Origin: Octopus sinensis
Lineage: Eukaryota
DNA length: 64,000 bases
Direction: 5' to 3'
Assembly (NCBI RefSeq): GCF_006345805.1
Contig: NC_043006.1
Span: forward strand, 48,360,001 to 48,424,000
The notes under the pieces were generated by a model that was not told the DNA's origin, searched no databases, and worked only from the letters and a program-made list of their open reading frames with translations. Made by a program: the position numbers and the translations under genes. Below, piece by piece: positions 17,581-37,536 of the stretch (position 1 is its first letter; the number at the start of each line of letters is the position of its first letter).

Positions 17581-18363
17581 GCTAACTTAAGGCGATGGCC
17601 TCATGGAGCTAATAAGCAGTCAGCTTTATTCTTATTTTTTAAGAATGCCATATTAGTATAGCGATAACTAATATATATATATATATATATTAGTTATCGC
17701 CATACTAATATGGCATTCTTATAAAAATAAGAATAAAGCTGACCGCTTATTAGATATATATATACATATATTCTTTTATTCTTTTACACGTTTCAGTTAT
17801 TTGATTGCGGCCATGATTTATTAGCTCCATGAGGCCATCGCCTTAAGTTAGCTAACTTAAGGCGATGGCCTCATGGAGCTAATAAGCGGTCAGCTTTATT
17901 CTTTTTTTATAAGAATGCCATATTAGTATGGCGATAACTAATATTTCCAGGAACGCTGCCGTTGTTCTCTTTTAGAGAGACTTAGTAATTTTAATATTTC
18001 TATTATTGAAAACAAGTGGATGTATTCCACCGAAGCTAGGTAAATAAAACCTTTGAACAGAGATTGTCGGAAGCGACACCTACTGGTTTGGCTACGCTGC
18101 ATTGAAAAGGGGCAATACCCCGAAACGCGTCTGTAGCTGCCGGCCAAGTAGTGTGGAGCGACTGACCTCCCTTGTTCAAAGGTTATATGGATACAGTTTG
18201 TGTATCAAATAGCTAACTTAAGGCGATGGCCTCATGGAGCTAATAAGCAGTCAGCTTTATTCTTATTTTTATAAGAATGCCATATTAGTATGGCGATAAC
18301 TAATATTTTCCGGGAACGCTGCCGTTGTTCTCTTTTAGAGAGACTTAGTAATTTTAATATTTC

Positions 18364-18370
<7 letters not shown>
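17581..18370 (+). mobile_element. Retrozyme/Penelope pLTR-like element, 361-bp unit with direct and inverted partial copies
   Basis: gctaacttaaggcgatggcctcatggagc starts at 17581, 17851 and 18212; inverted pieces at 17691-17753 and 17818-17851; hammerhead inside. Confidence 0.7.
18096..18137 (+). ncRNA. Minimal type I hammerhead ribozyme, U3-A8 core variant
   Basis: gctgca TTGAAAA gggg-caata-cccc GAAA cgcg TC tgtagc: stem I 6 bp, stem II 4 bp, palindromic stem III, GUC site. Confidence 0.75.
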
Positions 18371-18409
<39 letters not shown>

Positions 18410-18727
18410 GTGTTGTGTTTGTCACTCCACAATCTCTTGACAACTGATGTTGGTGAGTTTAAGTCCACATAACTTAGCGGTTCGCCAAAAACAACCGATA
18501 GAATAAGTACTAGACTTACAAAGAATAAGTCCTCGGGTCGATTTGTTCGACTAAAGACGCTGCTCTATCATGGCCGCAATCAAATAACTGAAACGTGTAA
18601 AAGAATAAAAGAATATATGTATATATATATATATATATATACATACACAACTGTATGTAAGTGTACAAAACGTGTGTATGAGGGTATATTTAGGTACACA
18701 AGGCAAATTCATTATTAAGATACTGAC

Positions 18728-18823
18728 TTTATCGTGTCTGGGGAGAGTCATTCTCTTTTAGTGTCTTAATGTGTTAAATTAATGAGACATTAAAAGAGAA
18801 TGACTCTCCCCAGACACAATAAA
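18728..18823. repeat. ~42-bp inverted repeat (hairpin)
   Basis: tttatcgtgtctggggagagtcattctcttttagtgtct / agacattaaaagagaatgactctccccagacacaataaa. Confidence 0.85.
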
Positions 18824-18909
18824 ATATGCTTCAACACACAAATTCGCATAAAGAATCTTGCAAACCAAATACAAGAACGAAAGATTGATAGTTTTGAGAA
18901 GAAAAACAA

Positions 18910-19012
18910 TGCTGATGATGCCGATGATGGCGACGACGACGACGACGACGACGATGGTGGTGATGGTGATGATGATGAAGATGACGATATTAATGATGAC
19001 GACGACGACGAC

Positions 19013-19063
<51 letters not shown>

Positions 19064-19088
19064 CCCCTTTTCATCATCTTCATCACAC

Positions 19089-19133
<45 letters not shown>

Positions 19134-19186
19134 TATCATATCATCATCATCATCACCATAATTATCATCGCCATCATCGTCGTCGC
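18910..19186. repeat. (GAT/GAC)n followed by (CAT)n triplet repeats
   Basis: Direct inspection. Confidence 0.95.
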
Positions 19187-19564
19187 TGTTTTTAAAAGCA
19201 ACATGCTTTTCAAGAACTCGCATTTCCCGGAATGTTTTCTTTTAATTTCTTGACAGAAAAGAAGAATGTGGGTGGAGCATGCCCATATCCACTTTTTGTA
19301 TCGCCACCCGTCAAACTACTTCTTTCTTATACACAAGGAAAGTACATGGAGGTATTTAGTTAACCGTATGTTAATTAAAAAGGACTTTGTAAAAGAATGC
19401 AGAAGAAATATATCACCGAACATAGTTACGTTTCTTGTAGTGTGAATGATAAATTGTCAGAACATATATAAATACACGTGCACGTACTTATTCATACATA
19501 CATACAAACATACATACTTACATAAATATATATATTCATGCATTTATATATGTATAAATATATA

Positions 19565-19622
<58 letters not shown>

Positions 19623-19704
19623 ACATACATACTTCATAAATATATACATTCATGCATTTATATATGTATAAATATATATATATATATATAATCTATATAT
19701 ATAT

Positions 19705-19741
<37 letters not shown>

Positions 19742-19749
19742 TATGTATG

Positions 19750-19782
<33 letters not shown>

Positions 19783-20000
19783 CATATATATATATATACA
19801 TATATATATATTATATATATATATATGTATATAATTATATATATAGAACACACACGTATACCTGCCTATGTATACAGCAGACAAGATACATACTTACACA
19901 CACACATATATGCGTGCGTGTGTCTGGACGTTGTGCATGTGTGCACGCGTGTGTGTATGCATTTATATATGTATATATATATGTATATGTATATATAGGT

Positions 20001-20041
<41 letters not shown>

Positions 20042-20067
20042 TATATATATGCATATATATATATATA

Positions 20068-20125
<58 letters not shown>

Positions 20126-20189
20126 TCAAGTATTTGCTCAGAGAGAAGGAAGCAGACAGAAAGGTAGAGAGGGATATATAGGCAGAGTA

Positions 20190-20419
20190 TAGGCCGAGCT
20201 GGCAGAAACGTTAGCATGCCGGGCGAAATGCTTAGCGGTATTTCATCTGCCGTTACGTTGTGAGTTCAAATTCTGCCGAGGTCGACTTTGCCTTCCATCC
20301 TTTCGGGTTCGATAAATAAAGTACCAGTTACGTACTGGGGTCGGTGTAATCAACTTAATACCTTTGTCCGTCCTTGTTTGTCCCTTCTATGTTTAGCCCC
20401 TTGTGGGCAATAAAGAAAT
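20190..20419 (+). mobile_element. SINE family B, tail A, full length
   Basis: cgagctggcagaaacgttagc..gagttcaaattc..core..tttagccccttgtgggcaataaagaaat. Confidence 0.9.
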
Positions 20420-21062
20420 GGGTATATGGAAGGAAAGCTTACGCACGAGATTGGTAGATACATAGATGCATAGCATAGTGCACATCTTTTCGGGCGCGCG
20501 TATGTCTGCTTATGTGTGTGCGTTTGCGTGTGAATGTGTAGGTGTGTGTGTGTATGTCCTTTAAGTTCGTTTATGAGAAACGTTTTGAATATCCATATAT
20601 AATAAGCTCCTATTCTATTATGCCGGCTACATCCCCAATGATGCCAAATGGCGATACTCGCTTTTAGGGTGTTGTACCGAGGTGTACATATACAATGTAG
20701 GATAAATATTATAATAACAATACCAATCCTTAGAAGAGATTTATAAATATTTTAAAGCATCGCTACGCGTGTTTCCTCAAATTACGAATCTTCATATCAT
20801 AATCCGTATTCCTAGGATGATTACAGCGCAATTTGTCGTATCCATGGACTTCGGGTAGATCATGTCCATGCAGCCATTTCATTAGGGCGATATAGCATTA
20901 ACGCCTTTTAACAAAGGGTCGTTTACCAAATTTGACCAATGAGAAGGTTGACTGGGTTATGTGGGCCATTTTCTATGTATTTGGCGGGGAGGGGTGGAAG
21001 GTGATGGAATGGAAGCGATGGTAGTTATACGGAGGTGGAGGTGTGTGGTATATATATATATA

Positions 21063-21293
21063 AGGCGGCGAGCTGGCAGAAACGTTAGCACGTCGGGCGA
21101 AATGCTTAGCGGTATTTCGTCTTCTGTTACGTTGTGAGTTCAAATTCCGCCGAGGTCGACTTTACCTTTCATCCTTTCGGGGTCGATAAATTAAGTACCA
21201 GTCACGCACTGGGGTCGATGTAATCGACTTAATACCTATGTCTGTCCTTGTTTGTCCCTTCTATATTTAGCCCCTTGTGGGTAATAAAGAAAT
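21063..21293 (+). mobile_element. SINE family B, tail A, full length
   Basis: aggcggcgagctggcagaaacgttagc..; probable TSD ggtatatatata on both sides. Confidence 0.9.
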
Positions 21294-21403
21294 GGGTATA
21301 TATATAATAGAGAGAGAGAGAGATAGATAGATAAATAGATAGATAGACTATACATACATATATATATGTATGTATACATGCATATATACATATATATATA
21401 TAC

Positions 21404-21448
<45 letters not shown>

Positions 21449-21879
21449 CATATATATATATAACATATATAAATAAATATATATATATATATAATTAAAG
21501 TCAAAATGAGGATATTTATGTAAGTAAAATTACATAATTTTTTAACGGTAAAATAATTGTATGGGGTTAATCTTTATTTTCGTTATTTTTCATTTGTCCT
21601 GCTCGCTTACGTTCTTGGTGTGTTGAATTATTTCTTGAGAACAATTCTTAGTGGTTGAGTCCCTTTGCGGATCTATATCTAGCGTAAGAGCGTCCATATA
21701 GTGGATTCTCTCTCATAGTTGTATATATATATATATATATATAGATCAATAAATGGTGGGGTTGTGTTGACCGCACGTGGAGAAATGATAAGCAAGGAAA
21801 AATTGTAAAAATGCAGAATGCTAGATTGAAAGAAAATTTTAATGAAATGAGAAATTGAAAAAATATATAAATATATATT

Positions 21880-21921
21880 TATTCAAACCGGTTTTCGTCA
21901 TAGTGTGACTTATCAAGAATA
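21880..21921 (-). ncRNA. Minimal type I hammerhead, U3-A8 variant (left arm)
   Basis: Exact reverse complement of 22007-22048. Confidence 0.65.
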
Positions 21922-22006
21922 GTTATTTATAATTATTCTTTTGCAAAAAACAATGCAACTTTCTTTTTTCCCCTTTCTCATTTAAAAAAAACTTTTGTTA
22001 CATAAC

Positions 22007-22048
22007 TATTCTTGATAAGTCACACTATGACGAAAACCGGTTTGAATA
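22007..22048 (+). ncRNA. Minimal type I hammerhead, U3-A8 variant (right arm)
   Basis: tattc TTGATAA gtca-cacta-tgac GAAA accggt TT gaata. Confidence 0.65.
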
Positions 22049-23039
22049 AATATCTATTTATATATTTTTTCAATTTCTCATTTCATTAAAATTTTCAATC
22101 TAGCATTCTGCATTTTTACAATTTTTCCTTGCTATATATATATATATATATCCATATGTATTATCTAATGTACATAGTATAAAAATACGAGCTATTAATA
22201 GCTTCTTTCGTTGGAGATATGGGATGGGAACCTATTGTCAGCAAAGTAGTTTGGTGTAATGTGAAATGAAGAGAATAAAAGTCTTGCTCAAGGATATAAT
22301 GCACACCACCTTGACGAGGAATCGAAACAGTGACTTATGATGATGAGTCCAACACTCTCACTACTTGGTCAAATGATTACGTAAATGACGCAAAATACAA
22401 GGAAAAAAGAATATCCGAAGATAAGAAGCAACATCGTATTGAAAAGATCCAGCACATGCTTTTTCTATTTCATTTAGTTAGAGACTGTGTTATGTCCTGA
22501 AAACCTACTCTAATTGCAACACGTATCTAATTAGAATATACGTCCCGAATTAACAATTTAAATGGTTGATTGATCAATTGTTGCTTTCTGGAAACGAGAT
22601 AAGCCACGATGTTCATATTTTCCAATGATTATACCTGTTAATAGGAAATTCGATATACGTACTAATGCAACTAGCATTTGTTTCACGTGTTTTCCGTTTA
22701 GCTCATGTGATTAACACTTGTCCCTGTAGGCCCCAAATAGGTTGCAATTGCGGGCGATAGATAAATTTTAATTCGTTCAATTTGTGGTCTCCACTTACGG
22801 TTAACATTTCACTGAAGGCTGGAATTATTCTGTTCTTATCTCGAGTTAATACTTTCAGACTTTTAATTATAACATATTCGAATAGTGACTATTAGCCAAA
22901 AGGAAGAATTAATTTCTTTTAATTGCAAATTTTTGTATCAATACTTTTAATTGCAAATTATTATGTAAATTTTTTTTAATAGTAGCATTCATTACTGTAG
23001 TTGCTGTTGTTGTTATTATTATTATTATTATTATTGAAA

Positions 23040-23253
23040 GGAATCGAGCTGGCAAAATAGTTAGCACGCCGGACAAAATGCTTAGCAGCGTTTCGTCCGT
23101 CTTTACGTACGTTCTGAGTTAAAATTCCGCCGAGGTCGGCTTTGCCTTTCATCCTTTCGGGGTCGATAAATTAAGTACCAGTGAAACACTGGTGTCAATG
23201 TAATTGACTAGTAACCTCACCCCAAATTTGAGACCTTGTGCCTCCAGTAGAAA

Positions 23254-23255
<2 letters not shown>
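23040..23255 (+). mobile_element. SINE family B, tail B
   Basis: Head, core and ccttgtgcctccagtagaaaga followed by (AAT)n. Confidence 0.85.
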
Positions 23256-23317
<62 letters not shown>

Positions 23318-23373
23318 TAATAATAATATTTTCGTTATTTTTCATTTGTCCTGCTCGCTTACGTTCTTGGTGT

Positions 23374-23438
<65 letters not shown>

Positions 23439-23509
23439 TATTATTATTATTATATTATTCATATTATTATTAGTATTATTATTATTATTATCATTATTAT
23501 TATTATTAA

Positions 23510-23587
23510 TGTTTGACTTTTGCTTTATGTCTGTACAAGTGGCTCCAAGTCTCACCCAGAGACCTCAAGAGACAACAGGTTGGAAGT
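23510..23587 (-). mobile_element. Probable 3' terminus of a Dong/R4-type LINE in (TAA)n
   Basis: rc ..gaggtctctgggtgagacttggagcc..aaagcaaaagtcaaacat(taa)n embedded in a TAA tract; family assignment is inference. Confidence 0.4.
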
Positions 23588-23630
23588 ATTATTATTATTA
23601 TTATTATTATTGTTGTTGTTGTTGTTGTTT

Positions 23631-23677
<47 letters not shown>

Positions 23678-23689
23678 ATTATTATTTAA

Positions 23690-23928
23690 AGGAACCGAGC
23701 TGGCAAAATGGTTAGCACGTCGGGCAAAATGGTTAGCACGTCGGGCAAAATGCTTAGCGGTATTTCGTCCGTCTTTACGTACGTTCTGAGTTCAAATTCC
23801 GCCAAAGTCGAATCTGCCTTTCATCCTTTCGGGGTCGATAAAGTAATTACCATTGAAACAATGGGGTCTATGTAATCGACTAGTCCCCCACCCCAAATTT
23901 GACGCCTTGTGCCTCCAGTAGAAAAGAT
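23690..23928 (+). mobile_element. SINE family B, tail B, with a 21-bp internal duplication in the head
   Basis: ggcaaaatggttagcacgtcg occurs twice; core; ccttgtgcctccagtagaaaaga. Confidence 0.85.
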
Positions 23929-23945
23929 CATTATTATTATTATTA

Positions 23946-23991
<46 letters not shown>

Positions 23992-24078
23992 GAACAGAGA
24001 AAAATAGTATGCGAGGAAAACGGAAAGAATTAATATATTTAACAGCACGAAATAAAAGATTATGCAGTTTAGGACAAC

Positions 24079-24132
24079 CACACACCCGGGTTTCGGCTTT
24101 TGGATATTTAATCCTTGAGGCTCTTCAATGTG
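24079..24132 (-). ncRNA. Decayed hammerhead-like motif
   Basis: rc: caca TTGAAGA gcc..ggat-taaat-atcc..gcc GAAA cccggg TG tgtg; cleavage site and stem II mutated. Confidence 0.45.
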
Positions 24133-24700
24133 AACTACCCTGTTAGAATTTACGACCGTCACGTTAAACTCTGACAGTGCAACTGGTTTTGTTTTGCGCA
24201 CCAAAAACTAGATCACATGGTGAAGAAAAATTATAAGCAAAACATTCAATCACTAAGATTTGAAATAAGATATAGATATATATCAAGTCAAATCCTTTTT
24301 ATTTGTATCACTATCTCCATATCAGCTCGCCTGGATTTCTTTTATAGGTAGGGTTGACACCGTGGGCCTCTTCCTCAATAAAGACATGTTTTCTATATTG
24401 AGCATTTTCAGATCTCCCCTGTTGACTATATACGTGTGTGTGTGAGAGAGAAAGAGAGAGAGAGTGTGTGTGTGTGCGTCTGCTGTTATGTGTGTGTAAG
24501 AGAGTGTTGTGTGCGTGCGTGTTTGAGTGTGAGAGAGTACGTGTGTGCGTAAGTGTGTGAGCACGCGCGCGTGTGTATGTATGTGTTTCTGAGTGAGAGT
24601 GTGTGTATTTGTGCGCGCGTTTGTGTATATGTATGTGTGAGAGAGAGTGTGCGTTTGTGTGCATTTGAGGGTATGTTTGTGCGTGTGTGTGTATGTTTGT

Positions 24701-24745
<45 letters not shown>

Positions 24746-25361
24746 GTGTGTATTTGTGTGTGTGTGTGTATGTTTGTGTGTTTGTGCGTGTACTTAGTTT
24801 ATGAAGACGGATCCAGTGGTCTGTTACTTTCCGCTCCTCCCTGGTTTCTGCTAGGTACACACATGCACACACACACACACACACAGACATCAACGACAAC
24901 AACACCATGGAAACTCCTTTGCAGTCACCATATACCCAAATACGGTCAGTACACCCATGACAACCCATGTCCACCCATCAGTGTTATCATTTTCATTATC
25001 ACCCTCATCATTAACGGTGATGTTTAAACACTTTTTCTCATTCACCGCTGGCAATTTATTTCAAACTATTGCCATCTAACGGTCAACAAACTCACAGCTG
25101 CAGCACCACATATATGCGTGATGTCTGACAAACTGTTATGGCCCCAGGGTGAAGATTTCTCTGTCATTTTTATATCCTTGAACTGCACGTGAACCCTTCA
25201 CTGTCACGGTTATTTCCTATTCTTCTCTCTTCTCCTAAGTAAATTTGTTTCCCTCTTCATCTATTATTTCTCTCTCTTCTGATAGTCCACCTTTTTTGCT
25301 CATTCCCCTGCTTCTACTTAATTCGCTTCATTTTATGTTTAATAAAACATTTTCTTACGAC

Positions 25362-25681
25362 GTCTATCCATCCATCCATCCATCCATCTATCCATCCATC
25401 TATCTATCCATCTATCTATCTTTCAATTAAACCATCTAGCCATCCGTCCATTCATCCCCCCATCTATCTATTTTTCTATCATTATTTCTATCAATCAATC
25501 TATTTGTCCATCTACCCATTTATCTATCTATTCATCTTTCTATCTATCTGTCCATCTATCTATTTATCTGGCTATGTCTCTATATATCTACCTATCTATC
25601 AATCTATCTATCTATTCGTCCATCTATTTATCAGTTTATTTATCTTTCTATCTTTCTATCAATCTATTTATCCATCTGTCA

Positions 25682-25771
<90 letters not shown>

Positions 25772-25788
25772 TCGTTTGTTTGTTTGTT

Positions 25789-25819
<31 letters not shown>

Positions 25820-25820
25820 T
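25362..25820. repeat. (CTAT)n/(CCAT)n microsatellite
   Basis: Direct inspection. Confidence 0.9.
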
Positions 25821-26425
25821 TTTCTATATATAAACGTGTAAAAACACGAACATACTTACATATACATACTCATAAACAGTTTAAACTGCTTTTTCATCAT
25901 GAATAATGTTATCAAAACGTTATTGTTAAAGAAAAGAGTTTGCCTAAGAACAGCTTGAAATTGGAGTTACAAGAAAGTCATAGGTAAGCAATTGTTGTAA
26001 GTATTGAGTTCTCTAACTTCATTCGTTTGAAAAAAACAGCGCTGGTGCATACTATTCTCTGTGCATGTACACTCACAACACACGTACATATATATATATA
26101 TATATATTATATATTATATATATATATATAATTATTTATATTACGGAAGACTTTGGATTTGAGACAAATTGCTGGGTTATCAGTAAAATTTCAATCCATT
26201 AATACTTCATAAAAATATATATTTTGATATGAAATGCAAACATAGGCATTGAAACAAAACATGTTCAGCGATATTCTAATCATATGAATTTGTACATACG
26301 CATCATAGGCGCAATTATTAAAACTCACAAGAGTATATGGAATGGTGATACACCGTATAATCTGCCTATTCATTATATATATAATATATAATATATCTAT
26401 ATATATATATATATAAACGTATATC

Positions 26426-26460
<35 letters not shown>

Positions 26461-26865
26461 TACAAATAAGAAAATGGGAGAGAAATACATCTAAATCAAT
26501 TATCAACTACCAGATGATACCCAATCACATACTTTATTAAACCACTACATATGAACATTAAGGTCACACATAATAATATAGAACAAAACAATGTACATGA
26601 GGGAGTAATATGATACAATAAGTACAATATGTATATGAGAATATAAATAAATATAAATAAATATAAATATAAATATAAACTATACATCTTACAGCTGTTT
26701 TGGCCATGCAGATATGGGTGTCTCATTTTACTTATATTAGCCATGTGTGATAGGTCAATATGTATATAAGTATATTCCTTTCGAGCGTTAAACTAATACA
26801 CCTGCTTGCTATTCCTACACCTGTCTTATTTTGTCTTCTGTAAATTTGAACAATATGTGTATATA

Positions 26866-28323: not shown

Positions 28324-28595
28324 ATGGTGGTGGTGGTGGTGGTGGTGGTTGTTGTTGTTGTATGTCCTGCAGCTATCATCTTGCAGGTTTCCAAGAACTA
28401 GTAATCACATCGAACTTGGTCAAATGATAAATGTATTAGGTCTCAATGGTTTTAGTGAGAGTTTTTATTGTCGTTGTTGTTGTTGTTATTGCAGTTATTA
28501 TTGCTTCTGATGCTGCTGTTGCGCGAGGATTATTAAAATAATTATCAATATTAAAATGGAGGCGGCGAGCTGGCAGAAACGTTAAGCATCAACGG

Positions 28596-29012
28596 GCGTA
28601 GGAGTGGCTGTGTGGTAAGTAGCTTGCTTACCAACCACATGGTTCTGGGTTCAGTCCCACTGAGTGGCACCTTGGGGAAGTGTCTTTTACTATAGCCTCG
28701 GGCCGATCAAAGCCTTGTGAGTGGATTTGGTAGACGGAAACTGAAAGAAGCCCGTCGTATATATGTATATATGTATATGCATGTGTGTGTGTGTATATGT
28801 TTGTGCGTCTGTGTTTGTCCCCCCAACATCGCTTGACAACCGATGGTGGTGTATTTACTTCCCCGTAACTTAGTGGTTCGGCAAGAGAGACCGATAGAGT
28901 AAGTACTAGGCTTACAAAGAATAAGTCCTGGGGTGGATTTGCTCGACTAAAGGCGGTGCTCCAACATGGCCACAGTCAAATGACTGAAACAAGTAAAAGA
29001 GTAAAAGAGTAA
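28596..29012 (+). mobile_element. SINE family A, full length, inserted into the head of a family B SINE
   Basis: Complete head, microsatellite and tail; family B head at 28561-28590 resumes at ~29014. Confidence 0.9.
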
Positions 29013-29013
29013 A

Positions 29014-29600
29014 CTATTTAACAGGATTTCGCCTGTCTTTATGTTCTGAGTTCAAAGTTCAGTCGAGGTCAACTATGCCTTTCATTTTTTTCAGGGTCAG
29101 CTTAATAAGTATCAGTCGAGCACCGGGGTCGGTGTAATCGACTTATCATCTCTCTGGAAATTGCTGGCCTTGTGCCAGAATTTGAAATCAATATTGGCAG
29201 CGGTGAGCTGGCAGAAACGTTAGCACGCCGTGCGAAATGCTTAGCGGTATTTCGTCTGCCGCTACGTTCAAATTCAGCCGCGGTCGACTTTGCTTTCATA
29301 AGTACCACTTACGCACTGGGGTCGGTATAATGGACTTAATCCGTTTGTCTGTCCTTGTATGCCCCCTCTGTGTGTAGCCCGTTGTCGGCAGTAAAGAAAA
29401 ATGAAACGTTAGCAACACCGCACAAAACGCTTAGCGAGATTTCGTCCGTTTTCTCATTCTGAGTTCAAATTCCACTGTGATCGACATTGCATTTCATTTT
29501 TTTCTGGGTCGATAAAATAAATACAGTTGAGCGTTGGGATCGATACAATTGTCTAATGCCCTCCCAAAATTGCTGGTCTTTACCAAAATTTTGAACCAAT
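29014..29600 (+). mobile_element. Three SINE family B copies
   Basis: Cores and tails A and B. Confidence 0.8.
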
Positions 29601-30934
29601 ATTAAGATCTTAGACTCGTGATTAAAAGATTGTTGGTTCGATTCGTGTACCGGGCGACACATTGGGCTCTTTAGCAAAGCACTTCACTCTATGTTGCTTC
29701 ATCGATTCACTCATTTCTACAAAGTAAACATCTATCCAACTGTTTCCAAATCATTTCTACCATGCAATTCCATCATTATCGATCTTGACAATAGAATAAC
29801 AGACACTATCATGTTGCCATTATACGAAGATGACTTATACAGAAAAACGGTGACTATCTGTTCGACATGTGGATGGGGAAATGGCTGACATATTTTCCTG
29901 GCTTCTAGCACACTTTGTGGGTACCTAGGATACCTTCAGAAAGAGTGTCTACTGAAATTCAGGATTGTGTAGGGATGACAGCTTAACAATCAGGTATAAC
30001 GGGAAAGGTTATGTGTAAGATATATTTTAAAAGGACATGATAGAAATATATCACTATGTAACTTTTTATACATAACATTATACTTATATACATACTTGTA
30101 CTACCCTACAAAAATACGAACGAGTAAACGGTATATATACACAGGAATTCCAATGAACGTCCAACTACAATGAAAAATCATACAGCAGGCATGTGCAGGG
30201 GAGTTCCTCATCTGTCTTCAGACGAGACATTTCCATCAGTATTGCCTCCTTTCAAATACGCTTTCTCTATAACATGTATTAACGTAATAGAGAAATTCAC
30301 ACAGCAGGAGAACTGGGAAGCGGGAAGTAATCTGGTTTTATCAGCCTCACAATATAAATGTGGCCTTGTTCTTTAGTAAGACAAAATTTCTTTTACCTAT
30401 GTACAAACACAACAATTTTTTAACACTAATAATATGAATGTCAACTATTCTTACCTAGATAAAGTTACTCTATAGCTATCATGCAACTACTTAAATTATA
30501 TACATAGGTAAATTCTATAAACAACAACCAAACAGAACCTCCTGGCCTTAAAGCCTTAGTGGATTGTATCCTTCCAATGTGGAGATGTATAGAGCAACCA
30601 TAGCAGCATCTCGTGATATCGTTCAATTAGTCGTCAAATTTACTGCTAAAAGGCAATTAACTAACGACCGTATTATTCATAAATTGTAATACAAATATAA
30701 TTGAATTTAAACTATATCGAAAGAAACTAACCTTAGAAGCTGGTATACCAGCCTGGCCGTACTCTTGTGACTGAAATCAATATAAGAATAATTGAATGAA
30801 AGAACACACAAATAAAATAATACAGTTATATACTACAAAATAAAAAAAAATATATCAAATACCTATGTACAACAAAAAACTCAGTTCCATACATAGATCA
30901 TGTACTCTTATACATACTTCAACAATCTATGCAA

Positions 30935-30969
<35 letters not shown>

Positions 30970-31152
30970 CATATACATACATAAAATACATACATGCATT
31001 CAAACATTCATACATACATATGAATATGTCTATGAATACGTATAACTTGTGTGTACGTTTTCTGTAGACACTAGGCACTATGGCTGACAACCCAACCTGT
31101 GTACATGTCTAGATACACATACAGAATTATATATACATGTATATATGTATGC

Positions 31153-31246
<94 letters not shown>

Positions 31247-33354
31247 AGATACATATATAAACATATATACATATATGTAAACAGTTGGATATATATACAT
31301 GTATTCGGAAATATATGTGTATATACATACATACATACATACATACATGCATACATACATACATGCATGTGTGTATATACGTATGCATGTATGTAAAAAC
31401 CCATAAATATTAGTTGAAAGCCTGCAAGCAACATGCCTGATAACAGCAACATGTCTATTTAGTTGCAAAGAAAACAGACTCCCATTGATGAAACTATAAT
31501 TTCGTGTAGATGCACCATTATTTATTTCCACCTCTTTACAAGCAATTCTTTGATCGCATCTGAAGATCTGCTGACAAGGAAATTGCAGCATATCGAATTA
31601 AATCACGTGAACTGCAGGTCAGGCTTTCAATATTCTTGAAGAAACTTCCACAGCTATTGGCCTTTATTTTCTATTGTCGGCATAGCAACAAAATTACTTC
31701 TAAATCTAAAATTCTTAAAGATCAAAAGAGATACCTCAGTGACATTTGTGTGTGTCTGTGTATGTATCTGTTGTAGGAATATTTTAAAGCGCTTGCATAT
31801 GTACTTGCGTATTTGCGTATGTGTACATTTGTGTATACGTCTCTGTTTCAATGTCTATATGTGTTTCTTTTGGCGTGTTTATTTATTTGCCTTGTGTGTG
31901 CATTTATGTGTGTATATGCATATATGCGTTTATGTATCCTTTACATTTTTAAATCTTTATAGTTTCATCATACCTTGGTGAATGTAATCCACTGGTTACA
32001 GTGCTCGTATAAAGCCAGGCTGTACGTGGCATTGCCCAGTGGACAGTGGCAATCAGTTGCAGCCAGTTAGCTTGACAGCAAGTAGAAGCCATATCTCCCG
32101 CCACCGAAATTATTATTTTGATTTAGTGTGAGTCAGTCTGCTGCCACTGGACACTGGACTTACCAATTTTATAATGAACAGTGGCAATCACTTGCAGGCC
32201 GTTGGTTTGACAGCATGTGACGCGTGGTCATTGTGATTTACAGTATGTATACTGACCAGTGGACACTGGAATCACCAATGGACATTGTGTGGGTGTGAGA
32301 AGAGGAGCGTGTTGTATGACCTGGATTTTTTTCTTTTTTATAATATTGTTGATAGTTGGTCAGTGGTAAACCCAATGTCCAGTATTATTGCCAGTCTGTC
32401 TGGACTGGAGGCTTGAACTAATAAATCTAGTGGAGATAATAGAAATATGAAGACGAAAGGTTAACACTGTCTCTGGGGAATGTGTGAAGGGATCAGTACA
32501 GATGAAAAGGAAGTTGGTCAATGACCTTGTGAGCAAATCATTAACCTTGGGCTAATATAAACCTAAGGTGCATTGCATTGTGGTTGATGCTTAGTAATAG
32601 GTCATCAGTCAAACAATACTCGGATATAAGACCAAAAGTGTTCCATTCGTGACCGTCTTTTTCCTGGGTATTTTAATGTTCAAACTAGTAACTCTGATAT
32701 ATTACGCATCATAATCACAGATGTTGATAAGAGCTTATGTAGTCTTGATCTTTAAGACACACGTCCGTAAATACACGAGGAGAGACTTTCAGGTGAAGAA
32801 ACATTTATTGTAGTGCTTTTCATAGAAAAGGTGCGCGGTAGCCCCGACCCTGACTCTAGAAATGGCCTGCTGAGATCGAAAAAGGATTAGACAAATTGCC
32901 TTGTTTAATGAAATGAAGGTACTAATTCAGATGTTTGGGAGAGCTTATGTAATAATGATATCAAAAGAAGACACAAGTCTATAAGTATTAATGGGAGTTT
33001 AGTTAGTACGGATTTCAAAATAGGATGCTACTTCACAGATATAGAAGAGGGTTTATATAATGCCCATATCTAGCATACTAGCACTCAGATGCTGGAGAGG
33101 GTTTGATCCTCTGGATCGTCAACAGTATTTTTTTCGATAATACAGTTCATATATTAACTGCAGAATCTGCTTCTATACGACTTCTCCATCATGTCTGATC
33201 CTCGCAAAACTCGTTCTAAACGCCTTCCTCAATTCTACTTCCCATAATCTTAACCCTTCTCGACATGTTCTATATGGCATAGTGGTTAAGAGCGCGGGCT
33301 ACTAACCCCAAGATTCCGAGTTTGATTCCAGGCAGTGACCTGAATAATAATAAT

Positions 33355-33730
33355 AAGATCAGTAAATATAAAGACTTGCTAATAGAAATTGAAAAAATGT
33401 GGCATCTCAAGGCGATTACAGTACCAGTGATCGTAGGAGCTCTAGGAATGATAAGAAAAGGTACTGAAACCTATTTGAAAATGATACCAGGCTTACTATC
33501 CCTACAGGAAGTGCAAAAAATTGTGTTAACTGGAACGGCGTGTACTAAGAAGAGCATTATCGCTGTGAAAACAACATCCATTTATGAATTTATTTATTAA
33601 TTTTTTAAATACATATTTTACCTGTGAATTTGCGTGTGTAAACTGGGAATGCATACCATTAGCTTCCCTGCCCTAGGTGTAAGGAAAACACTCGGCGAGA
33701 AACGGAAGAAAATTTGAAGAAAGAAGGAAA
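33355..33730 (+). mobile_element. 5'-truncated Dong/R4-clade LINE (restriction-like endonuclease C-terminus + 3' UTR) in (AAT)n
   Basis: ORF 33322-33600 KISKYKDLLIEIEKMWHLKAITVPVIVGALGMI..LQEVQKIVLTGT fits the RLE KxxKY..VPVVIGALG motif; AAT repeats on both sides. Confidence 0.85.
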
Positions 33731-33823
<93 letters not shown>

Positions 33824-33887
33824 TAATAATAATAATAACATTGAAAATTACCTTAGGAATGAGAACCCAGGTTCAAAATTTCCCCAA

Positions 33888-33933
33888 GACACCTGATGAA
33901 GGCTAGGCGGTATATTAGCCGAAACATTGTGTT
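33888..33933 (+). ncRNA. Minimal type I hammerhead ribozyme motif
   Basis: gacac CTGATGA a ggcta-ggcggtatat-tagcc GAAA ca TT gtgtt; stem III ca is probably CpG-decayed cg. Confidence 0.7.
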
Positions 33934-34414
33934 TACAACAAACAAGATGAGGAAAAATATCCGTCAAAGGTAAATAATGTAAATAAAGTATTTTCCGAAT
34001 AATTTATTTTATTCACCCTTTGAAGGACGAAAAATAAAGATGATCCAACATTAATGAAATTACAATTTTAACGGATGTAACTAAATACTGCCCTCCATTG
34101 TTCCTTTTATCTTGCTGTATTCTACCATACAAAGTGAAACTGTGCAGGAGAAGCGTTAATGAAGAAAGCAGAATATGTCGTGAAGGGTTAAGGTTATGGG
34201 AAGTAGAACTGAGGAAAGCGTTTAGAACGAGTTTTGTGAGGATCAGACATAATGGAGAAGTTGTAAGGAAGCAGATTCATTTTGCAATGAACTGCAAACT
34301 TAAAGGCACCTTAGGGGCAGCTCGTGGAGTTATAACGAGAGACGGATTAAGTCTACGACCCAAATTAAATCTACCATCCAAATTATTTTAAAGTAGCTGT
34401 TACATGTTATAACA

Positions 34415-34870
34415 TATTGGTTTCAAATTTGGACATAAGGTCAGCAATTCCGGGGGAGGGAGCAAATCGATTACATCGTCCCTAATATATAACTGGTACT
34501 TAGGTGATCGACACCGAAAGGAAGAAAGGCAAAGTTCACCTCTGTGGAATTTGAACTCAGAACCTAATGACAGAGAAAATGTCGCTAAGCATTTTGCCAA
34601 GCGTGCCAACGCTTCTGCCAGCTGACCGCCTTTACATGTTATAGCGTATTATTACACATTTTGCGAGGCGGCGATCTGGCAGAATCGTTAGCACGCCGAG
34701 CGAAATGCTAAGCGATATTTCGTCTGTCTTTACGTTCTGAGTTCAAATGCCGACGAGGTCGACTTTGCCTTTCATTCTTTTGTGGTCGATCAAATTAGTA
34801 CCATTATACGTACTGGGATCGACTTAAACGCTTTCCCTAAATTATATTCTTTGTGCCTATAAGAGAAAAA
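34415..34870. mobile_element. Two head-to-head SINE family B copies
   Basis: Minus copy 34415-34632; plus copy 34665-34870. Confidence 0.8.
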
Positions 34871-36668
34871 GATTATTACACATTTTGATAAGGCTTTGAT
34901 GTCAGAATTTTTTGGAAAGTAGTTCCACCGGGATGAAGTTATGTTGGTGAAAAGGTGAACAGGGAAGATAAAAACCAAGGCGAAAAAGTAGGGGTTACTC
35001 ATAGTAGGGTCAATTCGAAGAACAGAAACACATATGCATTTGACTGGCTTCGATGGAAATTGTCCAAAACGCAATACCTTGGTGAAGTAGTATAATGTTT
35101 ATAGTAACACTAGAAGAGCTGAGGGAAGGATACACTGTGACGATGGACAAAATGTTGCAGAACGTTGTAAAGCGAACGGTTTTCCAATCAGACAGATGTA
35201 TTACATCAGTGTGGCATTAAATTCGTGTAATGTTTATAAAAAACAACGACAGCCGGTTATGTATAACGTTGGGTGTGAATGACAACTAGTCGTAAGAGAA
35301 GACGTTCTGTCAATGAAGTGTTTCAAATGTTTTGTGATATGATCAATGTGTGACAGTTTACCATAAACAAAGTCGGAGAATATTTCATTTTCTGTAAAAT
35401 AATCTTCAATTTAATGATTGCAGTAATTCACACAAACAGTAACAGCAACAACACCGACGACAAAACGGCAACAACAACGAGATTTCACAAAAAAAAGATT
35501 GGAAATTAAACAAATACAGCTCTTGACATTAAACAATATTTCAAGTTAATTTATTTTTCTAAAGTGTTCAGTTAGCAATTCTTTTATCGTTCCAGGTCAA
35601 GCTATAAATGCCACGAGAAAATCTCGCTCTATAAAAGGGTTAAAGAATAAAACGAAAGCATTGAATCACTAATTGAGATGGACAACACGTGGACGTATGA
35701 CAGCAATCTAGATATTTTCTCAATTTATCTTCCTTATACTTTACTGAATATTTCCTTTCTCTAATAAATTTATCTCTCGCAAACACACTATTTCTAGCGT
35801 CAACACCTCATTTCATTTCTTTCATCTTTTTCAGATCGATAAAATGATCAATCAATCAATTATATGAGAGAAGATGATGATTGTCTCTTCACTGATCAAT
35901 CATTGTTGATCAATAAATACGTCAGCCTCAGCTTTGAAAAGCTTAAATCGATTTATCACATATCTCCTTTCCTTACCCCACCCCCACTCCTGACCCACCA
36001 ATGGCCCGCCTCACACTTCAGTGATATTAGCCATAGTTTATCTTGTTTTATACTATAAATCCATTACTTTCCATTCCGTAGTTAATCACCGTAATCGTAA
36101 TCTTTGAATATAATCACCCACAATCCCCACCATCATCATCATCATCATCATCATCATAACAGTCCACGTTGTCGTCGTCACCATCATAACCATCATCATC
36201 ATCATCGTCGTTGACGTCTTTGTAACTATATTTAAAGATGATTCCGGGACAGAAAATGGAGACGCGTGGCCCAATGGTTAGAGTATTGGGCACACAATCA
36301 TACGGGCGTACGTTCGAGCCTTAGACTGGGTAGTGTGTGTTCCCCAGAAAAAAAAAAAACATTTCTTGCCACGTTGCTCCAATTCTCGATATTCAACTGA
36401 ACCAACGGAGGGCCGAGTGGGGTTCTATATCTCTTGAAGACTGTATAGGCTTCGAGAAAAATCAACAAAAAAAAAACATTGTCAATGCAATCAGGTTAAG
36501 CTCACATGCGAATGACGTCCATATTAGCGCAAAAACAAAGCATTAAAGAAACAACACCTAATTTAGCCGACACCATTATATTTTCAGTTCAACTACAGCC
36601 AGTATCAAATTAAGCTTTTGTAATTTACTTCGTCACTAAACCTTTAATCTATCCTTCTACATATTAAG

Positions 36669-36915
36669 GTGGAGGCGCGTGGCTTAGTGGTTAGGGTGTT
36701 GAACTCATGATCGTAAGATTGTGGTTTCGATTCCTGGACCGCGCGATGCGTTGTGTTCTTGAGCAAAAACATTTCATTTCACGTTGCTCCAGTCCACTCA
36801 ACTGGCAAAAATGAGTAACGCTGCGATGGACTGGCGTCCCGTCCACCTGGGGAACACATACGCCATTGAAACCGGGACCATGAGCCTGGCTAGGCTTTAA
36901 AAGGGCGCATTTATT
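36669..36915 (+). mobile_element. SINE family C
   Basis: gtggaggcgcgtggcttagtggttagggtg..ggtttcgattcc..ctggctaggctttaaaagggcgcatttattt. Confidence 0.85.
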
Positions 36916-36939
36916 TAATTTTTTTATTCTACGTATTAA

Positions 36940-37152
36940 GTCGGCGAGCTGGCAGAAATGTTAGCACGCCGGGTGAAATGCTTAGCGATATTTCGTCTAT
37001 CTTTATGTTCTGAGTTCAAATTCCGCCGAGGTCGACTTTGCCTTTCATCCTTTCGGGGTCGATAAATTAAATACCAGTTGCGCACTGGGGTCGATCTAAT
37101 TGACTGCCACCTCCCCCAAAACTTTCAGGTCTAGTACCTTGAGTAGAAAAAA
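36940..37152 (+). mobile_element. SINE family B, tail B
   Basis: Full head and core. Confidence 0.85.
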
Positions 37153-37489
37153 TTCTTCTACATATTCGAAATAGAAAGCAAACATCATTCGAACCTCGCC
37201 TTACTATCCGAAAACTTCAAAGGATACGTTGGTTAGTGTACTTTTAAAAAATAAACGAGGTAGTCAACGTTGGAACGTCTATCATAATCGAATTGCTTGA
37301 TCATGTTGACTTAAGGTGTCAGACAACAATAATAATTATTAAAAAGGTAATATTTATCCCTGCTTAAAAGTAGATGCTGTGTTAGAACATAGGATACTGC
37401 ATTATTTACCATGTGTGGCCTAGTGGTGCATATAGGCACTCGAGTATACATTGCTAGTGGGAAATAATCGTGCGCTACCTCCGCCGGAA

Positions 37490-37536
37490 CTACCAGATCG
37501 GGTGATTTCGGCCTTCCTTTGCTTTCTCAATCGTAG
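37490..37536 (-). ncRNA. Type I hammerhead motif, U3-A8 variant
   Basis: rc: ctacga TTGAGAA agc-aaaggaag-gcc GAAA tc-accc-ga TC tggtag; one mismatch in stem I and one in stem II. Confidence 0.55.

What the first reader, a model, noticed from the sequence alone, without database searches (positions are those of the whole stretch)
18096..37536. Recurrent U3-A8 covariant hammerhead core (UUGANAA) in three unrelated elements
Seen: 18096 (TTGAAAA), 21880/22007 (TTGATAA) and 37490 (TTGAGAA) all have type I stems, GAAA and a UH site, but CUGANGA is replaced by UUGANAA. Their stems share no sequence. Established: C3 and G8 form a Watson-Crick pair in the active hammerhead, so U3-A8 is a compensatory swap rather than decay. 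Inference: octopus may host many hammerhead families that standard CUGANGA-based searches miss. The 24079 motif (UUGAAGA, U3-G8) looks like an intermediate.
Basis: partly seen in the sequence, partly recalled or inferred. Interest (0 to 1): 0.75.

Follow-up and report, generated by a model that had tools for sequence, protein, structure and literature searches.

The report
U-A core hammerheads in Penelope-type repeats
The flagged sites are two intact and two worn copies of small hammerhead ribozyme motifs carried by Penelope-type jumping-gene repeats; three of the four families have a U-A pair where the textbook core has C-G, a swap already described in other animals, and they are predicted to cut their RNA as dimers.

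Summary
All four flagged sites are hammerhead-derived. The motifs at 18096-18137 (+) and 22007-22048 (+), with its mirror at 21880-21921 (-), are intact type I motifs. They have a U3-A8 core, a 4-bp helix II and a 1-bp helix III capped by a palindrome. A strict descriptor found none in 200 shuffles of the window.

The 37490 site is a worn copy of an old family in which 23 of 28 copies have U3-A8. The 24079 site belongs to a family in which 23 of 28 copies have C3-G8; its U3.G8 comes with G17, so it is more likely decay than a working intermediate.

All four families are non-coding repeats with the Penelope-like insertion pattern: partial tandems, inverted 5'-truncated partners, tails and (TA)n targets. 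Family A is a 361-bp retrozyme-like tandem unit with over 1000 identical motif copies. Its diverged sub-families keep U3-A8 while N7 and the helices covary. An RT plus GIY-YIG element elsewhere in the genome also carries a U3-A8 hammerhead.

Natural U3-A8 covariation is already published (Perreault 2011; Cervera and de la Pena 2014), so these are new members of a known kind. Cleavage was not tested.

A G3-C8 family with 1395 copies was found in passing. This scan has noted Penelope-type hammerheads in at least 9 other genomes.

The parts
18096..18137 (+). Family A hammerhead motif. Helix I 18096-18101 / 18132-18137; core UUGAAAA 18102-18108 (U3 18102, N7 18106, A8 18107); helix II hairpin 18109-18121; GAAA 18122-18125; palindrome CGCG 18126-18129; U16.1 C17 18130-18131. 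Predicted cleavage after 18131.
   Evidence: Sequence. Descriptor hit. 0 strict hits in 200 shuffles. 1016 exact matches of the 34-nt pattern in the genome, control 0. Covariation across sub-families. Helices I and II appear in the MFE fold, and the dimer cofold forms ACGCGU helix III.
17849..18209 (+). One full 361-bp unit of family A (41% G+C), a retrozyme-like tandem unit.
   Evidence: Tandem spacing of 360-363 bp at many loci. Contigs of 4 of 4 runs join 18209 back to 17849. Circular fold -116 kcal/mol, z = -5.4.
18210..18369 (+). Partial next unit of family A (unit positions 1-158). It ends at the family's common 3' end, directly next to (TA)n.
   Evidence: blastn of the unit on the window and on arrays; sequence.
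22007..22048 (+). Family B hammerhead motif. Helix I 22007-22011 / 22044-22048; core UUGAUAA 22012-22018; helix II hairpin 22019-22031; GAAA 22032-22035; palindrome ACCGGU 22036-22041; U16.1 U17 22042-22043.
   Evidence: 21 exact genome matches, all with U3 and A8; N7 is T in 19, C in 1 and A in 1. In contigs of three other organisms only N7 and loop 2 vary at 5% or more.
21880..21921 (-). Mirror copy of the family B hammerhead motif in the other arm of the inverted repeat.
21744..22133 (.). Family B insertion: two inverted 5'-truncated copies. The left arm carries the 48-nt tail. The insertion sits inside a (TA)n microsatellite (21724-21743 and 22134-22151).
37490..37536 (-). Worn copy of the family C hammerhead (core UUGAGAA 37530-37524). 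Helix II is degraded and helix I has a G.G mismatch. The repeat copy spans about 37414-37610.
   Evidence: Among 28 family copies positions 3-8 read UA in 23 and CG in 2. Intact copy: L186.
24076..24135 (-). Family D hammerhead copy with U3.G8 (core UUGAAGA 24128-24122), palindrome CCCGGG, U16.1 at 24084 and G17 at 24083. The repeat copy spans about 23994-24175.
   Evidence: Among 28 family copies positions 3-8 read CG in 23 and UG in 3; position 17 reads A in 21, G in 5 and T in 2.
33888..33935 (+). Context: a copy of the genome's commonest canonical C3-G8 minimal hammerhead family (F1). Positions 15.2-16.2 read CA.
   Evidence: The family was seen 6 times in the 1.2-Mb sample.

Best explanation
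The motifs at 18096 and at 22007/21880 are intact type I hammerhead motifs with a U3-A8 core, and those at 37490 and 24079 are worn copies of two older hammerhead families. All four sit in non-coding repeats that show the insertion pattern of Penelope-like retroelements, and they likely self-cleave the repeat transcripts as dimers.

Shown:
- The sequence anatomy of each motif.
- Their excess over chance.
- Fixation of U3-A8 within families while N7 and the helices vary.
- The structure of the insertions: partial tandems, inverted 5'-truncated partners, a common 3' end, an optional tail, and (TA)n targets.
- An RT plus GIY-YIG element in the same genome that carries its own U3-A8 hammerhead about 565 nt behind its ORF.

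Inferred:
- Two copies on one tandem or inverted transcript, or on two RNAs, pair through the palindrome (ACGCGU in A, AACCGGUU in B) to build a full helix III.
- Each core then cuts 3' of position 17 (after 18131 in A).
- For the 361-nt unit of family A, the unit-length RNA may be ligated into a highly paired circle and copied by the Penelope-like reverse transcriptase, as proposed for animal non-LTR retrozymes.
- U3-A8 keeps the Watson-Crick 3-8 pair of the active core. It probably arose from C3-G8 by two GC-to-AT transitions in this AT-rich genome.
For: Anatomy and chance.

Family A.
- 988 first-look candidates. The 40 scored gave 45 listed matches: 41 full-length at 100% identity and 4 partial at 99-100%.
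- 1016 exact motif matches, control 0.
- Sub-families A2 (51 matches, N7 is G in 25 and T in 26, palindrome CATG in 50 of 51) and A3 (25 matches, N7 is C, helix I CATGCG/CGTATG, helix II GAGG/CCTC, palindrome CCGG). Both are homologous to A over the whole unit.
- On the 7-sequence alignment 94.7% of cells pair, against 83.9% in shuffles (0 of 500). 16 of 42 pairs changed on both sides, against 8.2 (0 of 500). These include 3 of 6 helix I pairs, 1 of 4 helix II pairs and the middle pair of the palindrome. Positions 3-8 read UA in 7 of 7.
- A roughly 85%-identical contig from another organism changes only four sites in the motif: 18096, 18099 (GU to AU), 18106 (N7) and 18118 (GC to GU).

Family B.
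- Variable 5' truncation, a common 3' end, a 48-nt tail present or absent, and (TA)n flanks.
- In three other organisms only N7 and three loop-2 sites vary at 5% or more.

Family C: 23 of 28 copies UA and 2 of 28 CG, Fisher p=0.009. Rfam Hammerhead_HH9 scores 24.9 bits (E=0.004) and 22.9 bits.

Penelope-like link: array structure. PF01541 gave 5029 candidates, and 147 of 150 scored were over the cut-off. 5 of 30 loci carry a U3-A8 motif on the endonuclease strand. L246 has RVT_1 plus GIY-YIG. Its motif has 148 exact copies.

Folding: the dimer is -31.9 kcal/mol against 2 x -12.9, and helix III forms. The circular unit has z = -5.4.

Literature (passages read): U3-A8 covaries in nature and such cores are active in vitro (PMC3088659). 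U3-A8 occurs in S. mansoni Penelope-like element hammerheads, with about 1300 hits (PMC4209133).
Against: - No cleavage or RNA-end data exist here. All runs laid were contigs, none is on record as RNA, and no start or end pile-ups were reported.
- No hammerhead model of Rfam reaches its gathering score on any copy.
- Copies within families A, A2, A3 and B are near-identical, so within-family conservation says nothing about selection. The covariation rests on only three A lineages in seven sequences, and part of the tested structure was derived from the same alignment.
- In old family C the global covariation control is not significant: 79.6% paired against 79.2%, and 131 of 500 shuffles reach the observed score.
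- Published Penelope-like element hammerheads cleave poorly in vitro (PMC4209133).
- In the Anolis element PAc, hammerhead mutants do not affect insertion in vitro, and no RNA-seq reads end at the cut site (PMC11167929).
- The common 3' ends of A and B lie about 140-240 nt behind the predicted cut, so cleavage does not define the element's end.
Confidence: 0.8

Rival explanations
1. The motifs are true descendants of hammerheads but no longer work as ribozymes. They ride along in the 3' part of Penelope-type repeats that spread whether or not the RNA is cut. U3-A8 is then a tolerated drift state under GC-to-AT mutation pressure.
For: Hammerhead-dead mutants of the Anolis element PAc insert normally in vitro, and no reads end at its cut site (PMC11167929, passages). 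Penelope-like element minimal hammerheads cleave weakly in vitro (PMC4209133). Naiad elements thrive without hammerheads (PMC8557442). The genome is AT-rich: 36% G+C in the window.
Against: Drift would not keep U3 and A8 paired across the lineages A, A2 and A3 while N7 takes A, G, T and C, helices I, II and III change by compensating pairs, and positions 3 and 8 switch together in family C. Of the 25 palindromic-class motifs in the 1.2-Mb sample, 22 have a Watson-Crick or G.U 3-8 pair where 38% is expected from base composition (copies of one family are not independent).
Confidence: 0.15
2. The conserved fold serves another purpose in the retroelement RNA, such as a binding or start signal for the reverse transcriptase or a promoter element. 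The hammerhead-like core is kept for that reason, not for cleavage.
For: In PAc, reverse transcription starts at internal RNA sites, and the hammerhead cleaves only when the protein is added (PMC11167929, passages). In every family here the motif lies a fixed 65-240 nt from the 3' end.
Against: The conserved letters are exactly the catalytic ones (U4 G5 A6 A9 G12 A13 A14 A15.1 U16.1 H17) in families whose stems share no sequence. A protein-binding site would not be expected to leave N7 as the only free core position in each of them.
Confidence: 0.04
3. The matches are chance look-alikes that an AT-rich genome throws up for the loose word UUGANAA...GAAA.
For: UUGANAA is commoner than CUGANGA in 36% G+C DNA. 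Relaxed descriptors give about 3 rows per shuffled window. The window copies at 37490 and 24079 fail the descriptor on their own.
Against: 0 strict hits in 200 shuffles against 2 independent motifs observed. In 1.2 Mb there were 25 palindromic-class motifs against 0.6 expected. Reverse-pattern controls gave 0 against 1016, 21, 51, 25, 148 and 1395 matches. There is also covariation and sub-threshold Rfam hammerhead hits.
Confidence: 0.01

Closest known systems
Natural U3-A8 covariants of the hammerhead core (Perreault et al. 2011, PMC3088659; passages read)
   Same: C3-G8 is replaced by U3-A8 with the rest of the core intact. The paper states that such cores had been proven active in vitro and were seen in 'several' natural examples.
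   Different: Here the variant is the fixed state of at least five repeat families in one animal genome (A superfamily, B, C, the RT-EN element, and L177). One of these families has over 1000 identical copies.
Hammerheads of Penelope-like elements, including the U3-A8 variant of the S. mansoni Cercyon element (Cervera and de la Pena 2014, PMC4209133; passages read)
   Same: Type I motif near the 3' end or pLTR of Penelope-like elements. Very short helix III with a palindromic loop, so a dimeric active form is predicted. G10.1-C11.1 pair. Pairs of motifs on opposite strands 100-700 bp apart. A U3-A8 descriptor retrieved about 1300 hits in the fluke.
   Different: A and B lack the extra nucleotide between A9 and 10.1 and the long helix II of the 'min-HHR'. 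With helix I of 5-6 bp and helix II of 4 bp they look like that paper's 'canonical metazoan type I' form. The host is a cephalopod-type genome. No paper I found describes hammerheads there: search, and 0 occurrences of 'hammerhead' or 'retrozyme' in PMC13282606.
Animal non-LTR retrozymes (Cervera and de la Pena 2020, PMC7229834, passages read; Li, Clavereau and Pollet 2026 preprint, abstract only)
   Same: Family A is a 361-bp tandem unit of 41% G+C with one type I hammerhead per unit. It occurs from dimers up to at least 8 consecutive units at 359-363-bp spacing. Its RNA is predicted to be highly self-paired, and it co-occurs with Penelope-like elements.
   Different: Circular RNA and expression are not shown here. 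The core is U3-A8. The arrays carry the Penelope-like signature of inverted 5'-truncated partners and a fixed 3' end at unit position about 158 (or 96).
Rfam Hammerhead_HH9 (RF02275) and Hammerhead_3 (RF00008)
   Same: Family C copies align end to end with the HH9 model, including the outer part of helix I.
   Different: Scores are 16.9-24.9 bits against a gathering score of 52, and 17.5-18.1 against 48.5 for D copies. No hit at E<=10 covers A or B in a 7-kb search.
Engineered C3G/G8C double mutant (Martick and Scott 2006, as cited in PMC11167929; also PMC3884650; passages read)
   Same: It has the same G3-C8 core as the 1395-copy family found in passing. Single mutants are dead and the double mutant partly recovers.
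   Different: Those are laboratory constructs. The family here is natural. I found no report of a natural G3-C8 hammerhead with the searches.

Membership tests
Hammerhead ribozyme (type I) | Invariant core letters U4 G5 A6 A9, G12 A13 A14, A15.1-U16.1, and H (not G) at position 17 | tested here: met
   All are present in A and B. In family C (28 copies): U4 28, G5 25, A6 25, A9 26, C17 24. The window's D copy fails at position 17 (G), while 21 of 28 family D copies have A.
Hammerhead ribozyme (type I) | Positions 3 and 8 form a Watson-Crick pair (C-G in the consensus) | tested here: met
   The pair is kept as U-A, not C-G, in A, A2, A3, B, C and the RT-EN element. The window's D copy has the wobble U.G.
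Hammerhead ribozyme (type I) | Helices I and II flank the core and are supported by compensating changes | tested here: met
   In the A superfamily 3 of 6 helix I pairs and 1 of 4 helix II pairs changed on both sides. Only three lineages are involved. In family C the third pair of helix I reads AU in 13 and GC in 7.
Hammerhead ribozyme (type I) | A stable helix III within one molecule | tested here: not met
   Only A15.1-U16.1 (plus one A-U pair in B) closes a 4-nt palindrome. A full helix III forms only in the dimer cofold. This is the known state of most animal type I hammerheads (PMC4209133).
Hammerhead ribozyme (type I) | Reaches the curated score of an Rfam hammerhead model | tested here: not met
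   The best score is 24.9 bits against a gathering score of 52.
Hammerhead ribozyme (type I) | Site-specific self-cleavage 3' of position 17 | not testable with these tools
   No RNA holder was listed. Contigs cannot show RNA ends.
Hammerhead ribozyme (type I) | Tertiary contact between loop 2 and a loop or bulge in helix I | not tested
   Loop 2 is similar in A, A2, A3 and B (CAAUA, CAACAA, CAAUAA, CACUA), and helix I of A is followed by an internal loop. No contact was modelled.
Penelope-like-element hammerheads (min-HHR / small dimeric variants) | Short helix III with palindromic 15.2-16.2 positions or loop 3 | tested here: met
   The palindromes are CGCG, CATG, CCGG, ACCGGT, CCCGGG and ATAT. 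In the A superfamily the middle pair changes by compensation.
Penelope-like-element hammerheads (min-HHR / small dimeric variants) | Extra nucleotide between A9 and 10.1 and a long helix II | tested here: not met
   Absent in A, B and C. Present in F1 (window 33888), F2 and the G3-C8 family.
Penelope-like-element hammerheads (min-HHR / small dimeric variants) | Lies in the terminal repeat or 3' part of a Penelope-like element | tested here: met
   Direct for the RT plus GIY-YIG element L246. For A, B, C and D it is inferred from the insertion signature, not from a linked ORF.
Animal non-LTR retrozymes | Tandem repeats of 150-450 bp, G+C under 45%, one type I hammerhead per unit | tested here: met
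   Family A: 361 bp, 41% G+C, arrays at 360-363-bp spacing.
Animal non-LTR retrozymes | Expressed as small, highly self-paired circular RNA | not testable with these tools
   Only a prediction is available: the circular fold is -116 kcal/mol, 63% paired, z = -5.4. The 18209->17849 joint seen in contigs fits tandem DNA equally well.
Penelope-like retroelement insertion unit | Partial tandem, adjacent inverted 5'-truncated copy, optional 30-40-bp tail, microsatellite target | tested here: met
   A. B: 48-nt tail, (TA)n on both sides. G family: a tail of about 55 nt, (TA)n. Definition taken from PMC8557442 and PMC11167929 (passages read).
Penelope-like retroelement insertion unit | ORF with reverse transcriptase and GIY-YIG endonuclease | tested here: not met
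   A (361 bp), B (about 985 bp), C and D are too short and non-coding. They would be non-autonomous. The ORF is present elsewhere in the genome. No sequence is shared between that element's 3' part and A, B, C or D.

The most novel reading that the evidence does not exclude
In this genome the hammerheads of Penelope-type elements use the 3-8 position as a freely covarying Watson-Crick pair. C-G, U-A and G-C each characterise separate, abundant families. The G3-C8 family (GUGAACA core) has 1395 exact copies and would be the first natural hammerhead with the 'swapped' pair so far known only from laboratory double mutants. If these variants cleave, then descriptor and covariance-model searches that fix CUGANGA undercount animal hammerheads by more than half here: 16 of the 25 motifs in a 1.2-Mb sample were not C-G.
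Probability: 0.4. Interest if true: 0.55.

Novelty: new member of a known kind. Interest (0 to 1): 0.4.

Why it matters
It adds a cephalopod-type genome to the animals whose Penelope-type repeats carry hammerheads. It also shows that the U3-A8 core is not a rare curiosity there. It is the fixed state of several families, including a very young 361-bp retrozyme-like repeat with over 1000 identical motif copies and an element with an open RT-endonuclease frame.

For annotation, the result means hammerhead searches in such genomes should treat 3-8 as a pair and should allow a 1-bp helix III. Rfam at curated thresholds reports none of them.

For ribozyme biology, it offers natural test material for the 3-8 pair: U-A, a possible U.G state, and a G-C family.

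Tried and rejected
- RNA evidence. The look-up of sequencing runs listed no RNA holder. Both read-laying runs used contigs only and reported no start or end pile-ups. Nothing can be said on expression, cleavage ends or circles. Run X7 laid nothing on family B.
- Rfam. Gathering threshold on the whole window gave only 5S rRNA. E<=10 on 17500-24500 gave 127 rows, none a hammerhead, mostly microsatellite hairpins scored as miRNA.
- Relaxed descriptor for the 37490 and 24079 copies. Neither passes. My first reading of them as chance look-alikes was overturned by the family alignments.
- A 'C3-G8 relative of family A' at L150 was rejected. Only about 20 nt behind helix II match family A, and the upstream half is (TA)n-rich unrelated DNA.
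- Exact pattern built from the majority letters of family C: 0 matches, because the family is too worn. Pattern for the U.G motif of L051: only itself, so that family's state stays unknown.
- Global covariation in family C is not significant.
- Shared 3' ends between the RT-EN element and A, B, C, D or G: none found, so the partner of each non-autonomous family is not identified.
- L202 and L208, the two C3-G8 copies of family C, are 73% identical against a family mean of 68% (sd 5). That is not a clear sub-family.
- Lunse, Weinberg and Breaker 2017 (PMC5785218) is not held. It may list core variants that I could not see. Supplements of the cited papers were not opened.
- Earlier notes of this scan: none on this genome or on this sequence.

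Full report
**What is at the four sites.** On the + strand, 18096-18137 reads helix I GCTGCA, core TTGAAAA, hairpin GGGG-CAATA-CCCC, GAAA, CGCG, TC, helix I TGTAGC. At 22007-22048 the order is the same: TATTC, TTGATAA, GTCA-CACTA-TGAC, GAAA, ACCGGT, TT, GAATA. An identical mirror copy lies at 21880-21921 on the minus strand, inside an inverted repeat with 116-nt arms. On the minus strand, 37536->37490 has TTGAGAA, GAAA and TC, but helix II is nearly gone and helix I has a G.G mismatch. On the minus strand, 24135->24076 has TTGAAGA and the palindrome CCCGGG, but G follows U16.1. Its description fits two sites fully and two in part.

**Chance.** I wrote a descriptor that leaves positions 3, 7 and 8 free. 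It asks for helix I of at least 4 bp, helix II of at least 3 bp, GAAA, and A15.1..U16.1 closing either a palindrome or a stem, followed by H17. The window gives 3 hits: the 18096 motif and the two mirror copies of the 22007 motif, all U3-A8. Two hundred dinucleotide shuffles gave a mean of 0.225 hits, and none gave 3. A stricter form gave 0 hits in 200 shuffles. The copies at 37490 and 24079 fail even a relaxed form that yields about 3 rows per shuffled window. On their own they would count as noise.

**Family A (18096).**
- The 156 bases around the motif have 988 first-look candidates in the 2.72-Gb genome. The 40 scored gave 45 listed matches: 41 full-length at 100% identity and 4 partial at 99-100%.
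- A 34-nt pattern with N at positions 3, 7 and 8 has 1016 matches, with 0 for the reversed control. The 100 matches listed all read TTGAAAA.
- The unit is 361 bp (17849-18209) with 41% G+C. It forms partial tandem arrays, often with an inverted partner that breaks off at a variable 5' point. The arrays end at unit position about 158, or about 96, next to (TA)n.
- Two diverged sub-families are homologous over the whole unit. A2 has 51 matches; N7 is G in 25 and T in 26, loop 2 is CAACAA, and the palindrome is CATG in 50 of 51. A3 has 25 matches; N7 is C, helix I is CATGCG/CGTATG, helix II is GAGG/CCTC, and the palindrome is CCGG. U3 and A8 are present in all 51 and all 25.
- A contig of another organism, about 85% identical, changes only four sites in the motif: the outermost pair of helix I, a GU-to-AU change, N7 (to C), and a GC-to-GU change.
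- On a 7-sequence alignment, 94.7% of cells pair against 83.9% in shuffles (0 of 500). 16 of 42 pairs changed on both sides, against 8.2 in shuffles (0 of 500). Slid controls pair in 32-42% of cells.
- Caveats: the alignment holds only three lineages, and part of the tested structure was predicted from the same alignment.
- The 156-nt region folds into a long rod (-64 kcal/mol) with helices I and II at its tip. Two motifs cofold into the dimer with helix III ACGCGU (-31.9 against 2 x -12.9). The circular 361-mer folds at -116 kcal/mol with z = -5.4.

**Family B (22007/21880).**
- A 35-nt pattern has 21 matches, all with U3 and A8. N7 is T in 19, C in 1 and A in 1.
- Full copies are about 985 bp. 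Many are cut short at variable 5' points and share one 3' end. A 48-nt tail is present or absent, and the flanks are (TA)n.
- The window's insertion (21744-22133) is two such truncated copies head to head inside a (TA)n tract.
- In contigs of three other organisms the only differences at 5% or more within the motif are N7 (C is the major letter there) and three loop-2 positions. A one-base loss in the U run occurs in part of two runs.

**Family C (37490).** The repeat is old: other genome matches are 70-80% identical to the window copy, and the 28 copies average 68% pairwise identity.
- In 28 copies, positions 3-8 read UA in 23, CG in 2, CA in 1, and other in 2. N7 is C in 20.
- The association between positions 3 and 8 has Fisher p=0.009. 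The third pair of helix I reads AU in 13-14 copies and GC in 7, p=0.009.
- One copy, L186, passes the descriptor intact.
- The overall shuffle control is not significant, as expected for copies that decay after insertion.
- Rfam's HH9 model aligns end to end with copies at 24.9, 22.9 and 16.9 bits, below the gathering score of 52.

**Family D (24079).** In 28 copies, positions 3-8 read CG in 23 and UG in 3. The three UG copies are the window copy and one inverted pair elsewhere. Position 17 reads A in 21 and G in 5. The window copy is therefore a minority state of a canonical family, and it carries G17. I read it as decay or a dead sub-lineage, not as a working intermediate. U.G remains the obvious mutational path from C-G to U-A.

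**Link to Penelope-like elements.**
- The insertion pattern seen here (partial tandems, inverted 5'-truncated partner, optional tail, microsatellite target) is the one described for these elements (PMC8557442, PMC11167929, passages read).
- The genome holds many GIY-YIG matches: 5029 candidates, and 147 of 150 scored were over the cut-off, with open frames up to 883 aa.
- In 5 of 30 loci a motif lies on the endonuclease strand, 446-844 nt behind the match: ATTT, TTGATAA, GGTTC...GAACC, GAAA, CATG, TA, AAAT. This is again U3-A8.
- L246 has RVT_1 plus GIY-YIG in one frame and ends at (TA)n.
- This motif has 148 exact copies. Of the 100 listed, U3 is in 100 and A8 in 98.
- No sequence is shared between this element's 3' part and families A, B, C, D or G. 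The partner of each non-coding family is therefore unknown.

**Genome sample.**
- In 120 stretches of 10 kb taken at fixed 10-Mb steps, the descriptor found 35 motifs against a mean of 9.1 in ten shuffles. In the palindromic class it found 25 against 0.6.
- The 3-8 letters of those 25 are CG 9, UG 4, GC 4, UA 4, AU 1, UU 1, AC 1 and GA 1.
- So 22 of 25 pair, where base composition predicts 38%. Copies of one family are not independent.
- The GC class is one family with core GTGAACA, helix I TTTGTCA/TGACAAA, a bulged G, helix II GTCGC/GCGAC, and ATAT, TT. It has 1395 exact matches. Of the 100 listed, G3 is in 100 and C8 in 97. It shows the same tail and (TA)n signature.

**What is known.**
- Perreault et al. 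2011 state that C3 and G8 covary to U3 and A8 in several natural hammerheads, and that such cores are active in vitro (PMC3088659).
- Cervera and de la Pena 2014 found U3-A8 in the Cercyon element of S. mansoni, with about 1300 hits. They describe the short palindromic helix III and the dimer model (PMC4209133).
- Animal non-LTR retrozymes are tandem units of 150-450 bp and low G+C, each with a type I hammerhead (PMC7229834). A 2026 preprint derives them from Penelope-like elements (abstract only).
- The finding is therefore a new member of a known kind.
- I found no paper on hammerheads in cephalopods and no report of a natural G3-C8 core. Lunse et al. 2017 was not available.

**Mechanism and limits.** Shown here: anatomy, abundance, covariation and element type. 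Inferred: dimer formation through the palindrome, cleavage after position 17, and for family A circularisation and copying by the element's reverse transcriptase. Three points weigh against a required role. Penelope-like element hammerheads cleave weakly in vitro (PMC4209133). Hammerhead-dead PAc RNA still inserts in vitro (PMC11167929). The elements' 3' ends do not coincide with the predicted cut. No RNA data could be had.

Noticed in passing
L107:1497-1546 (G000:C1, about 7323032-7323081); also L062, L078, L121, L103-L112: A high-copy hammerhead family with a G3-C8 core: GTGAACA, bulged G, helix II GTCGC/GCGAC, palindrome ATAT, U17, 7-bp helix I. It has 1395 exact matches of a 35-nt pattern. 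Of the 100 listed, G3 is in 100 and C8 in 97. Many copies occur as inverted pairs 58-100 bp apart, with a tail of about 55 nt and (TA)n ends. I found no report of a natural G3-C8 hammerhead.
   Followed up: partly
L246:1-2465 (G000:C6:82398301-82400765): A Penelope-like element copy with RVT_1 and GIY-YIG in one open frame (597 aa within the locus; the tool reports 780 aa). A U3-A8 hammerhead motif lies at 2358-2403, and the 3' end sits at (TA)n. The motif has 148 exact copies in the genome.
   Followed up: partly
window 33888-33935 (+): A copy of the genome's commonest canonical C3-G8 minimal hammerhead family. It has a bulged A after A9 and a 5-bp helix II, and positions 15.2-16.2 read CA, probably a decayed CG. 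Rfam at gathering score does not report it.
   Followed up: partly
window 40845-40963 (+): 5S ribosomal RNA gene, 82.2 bits, full model length. This was the only Rfam match at gathering score in the window.
   Followed up: no
window 17579-17854: Upstream of the full family A unit lie three fragments of the unit's first 96 bases in both orientations (17579-17674 +, 17687-17753 -, 17818-17854 -). This is a nested or rearranged insertion of the same family.
   Followed up: partly
window 18890-19200 and 19450-20120, 21330-21500: Long (GAT)n/(ATC)n and (TA)n/(CA)n microsatellite blocks form perfect hairpins. They account for most of the sub-threshold 'miRNA' rows in the Rfam E-value scan and are not genes.
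   Followed up: no
window 22008-22075 as laid on run X16: In one other organism the summed contig depth over the family B hammerhead and its 3' side is 10-40 times that of the part upstream (about 100,000-230,000 against 5,000-19,000). The motif-bearing end may therefore be shared with a much larger family there.
   Followed up: no
L167:2529 (+) and 2137 (-); L177:9200 (+): Two further U3-A8 motifs from the random sample. A3 is a distant relative of family A, present as an inverted pair, with 25 exact copies. The second is a separate minimal form (TTGAAC, TTGACAA, bulged A, GACAG...CTGTT, GAAA, TA, TC, GTTCAA) whose family was not studied.
   Followed up: partly
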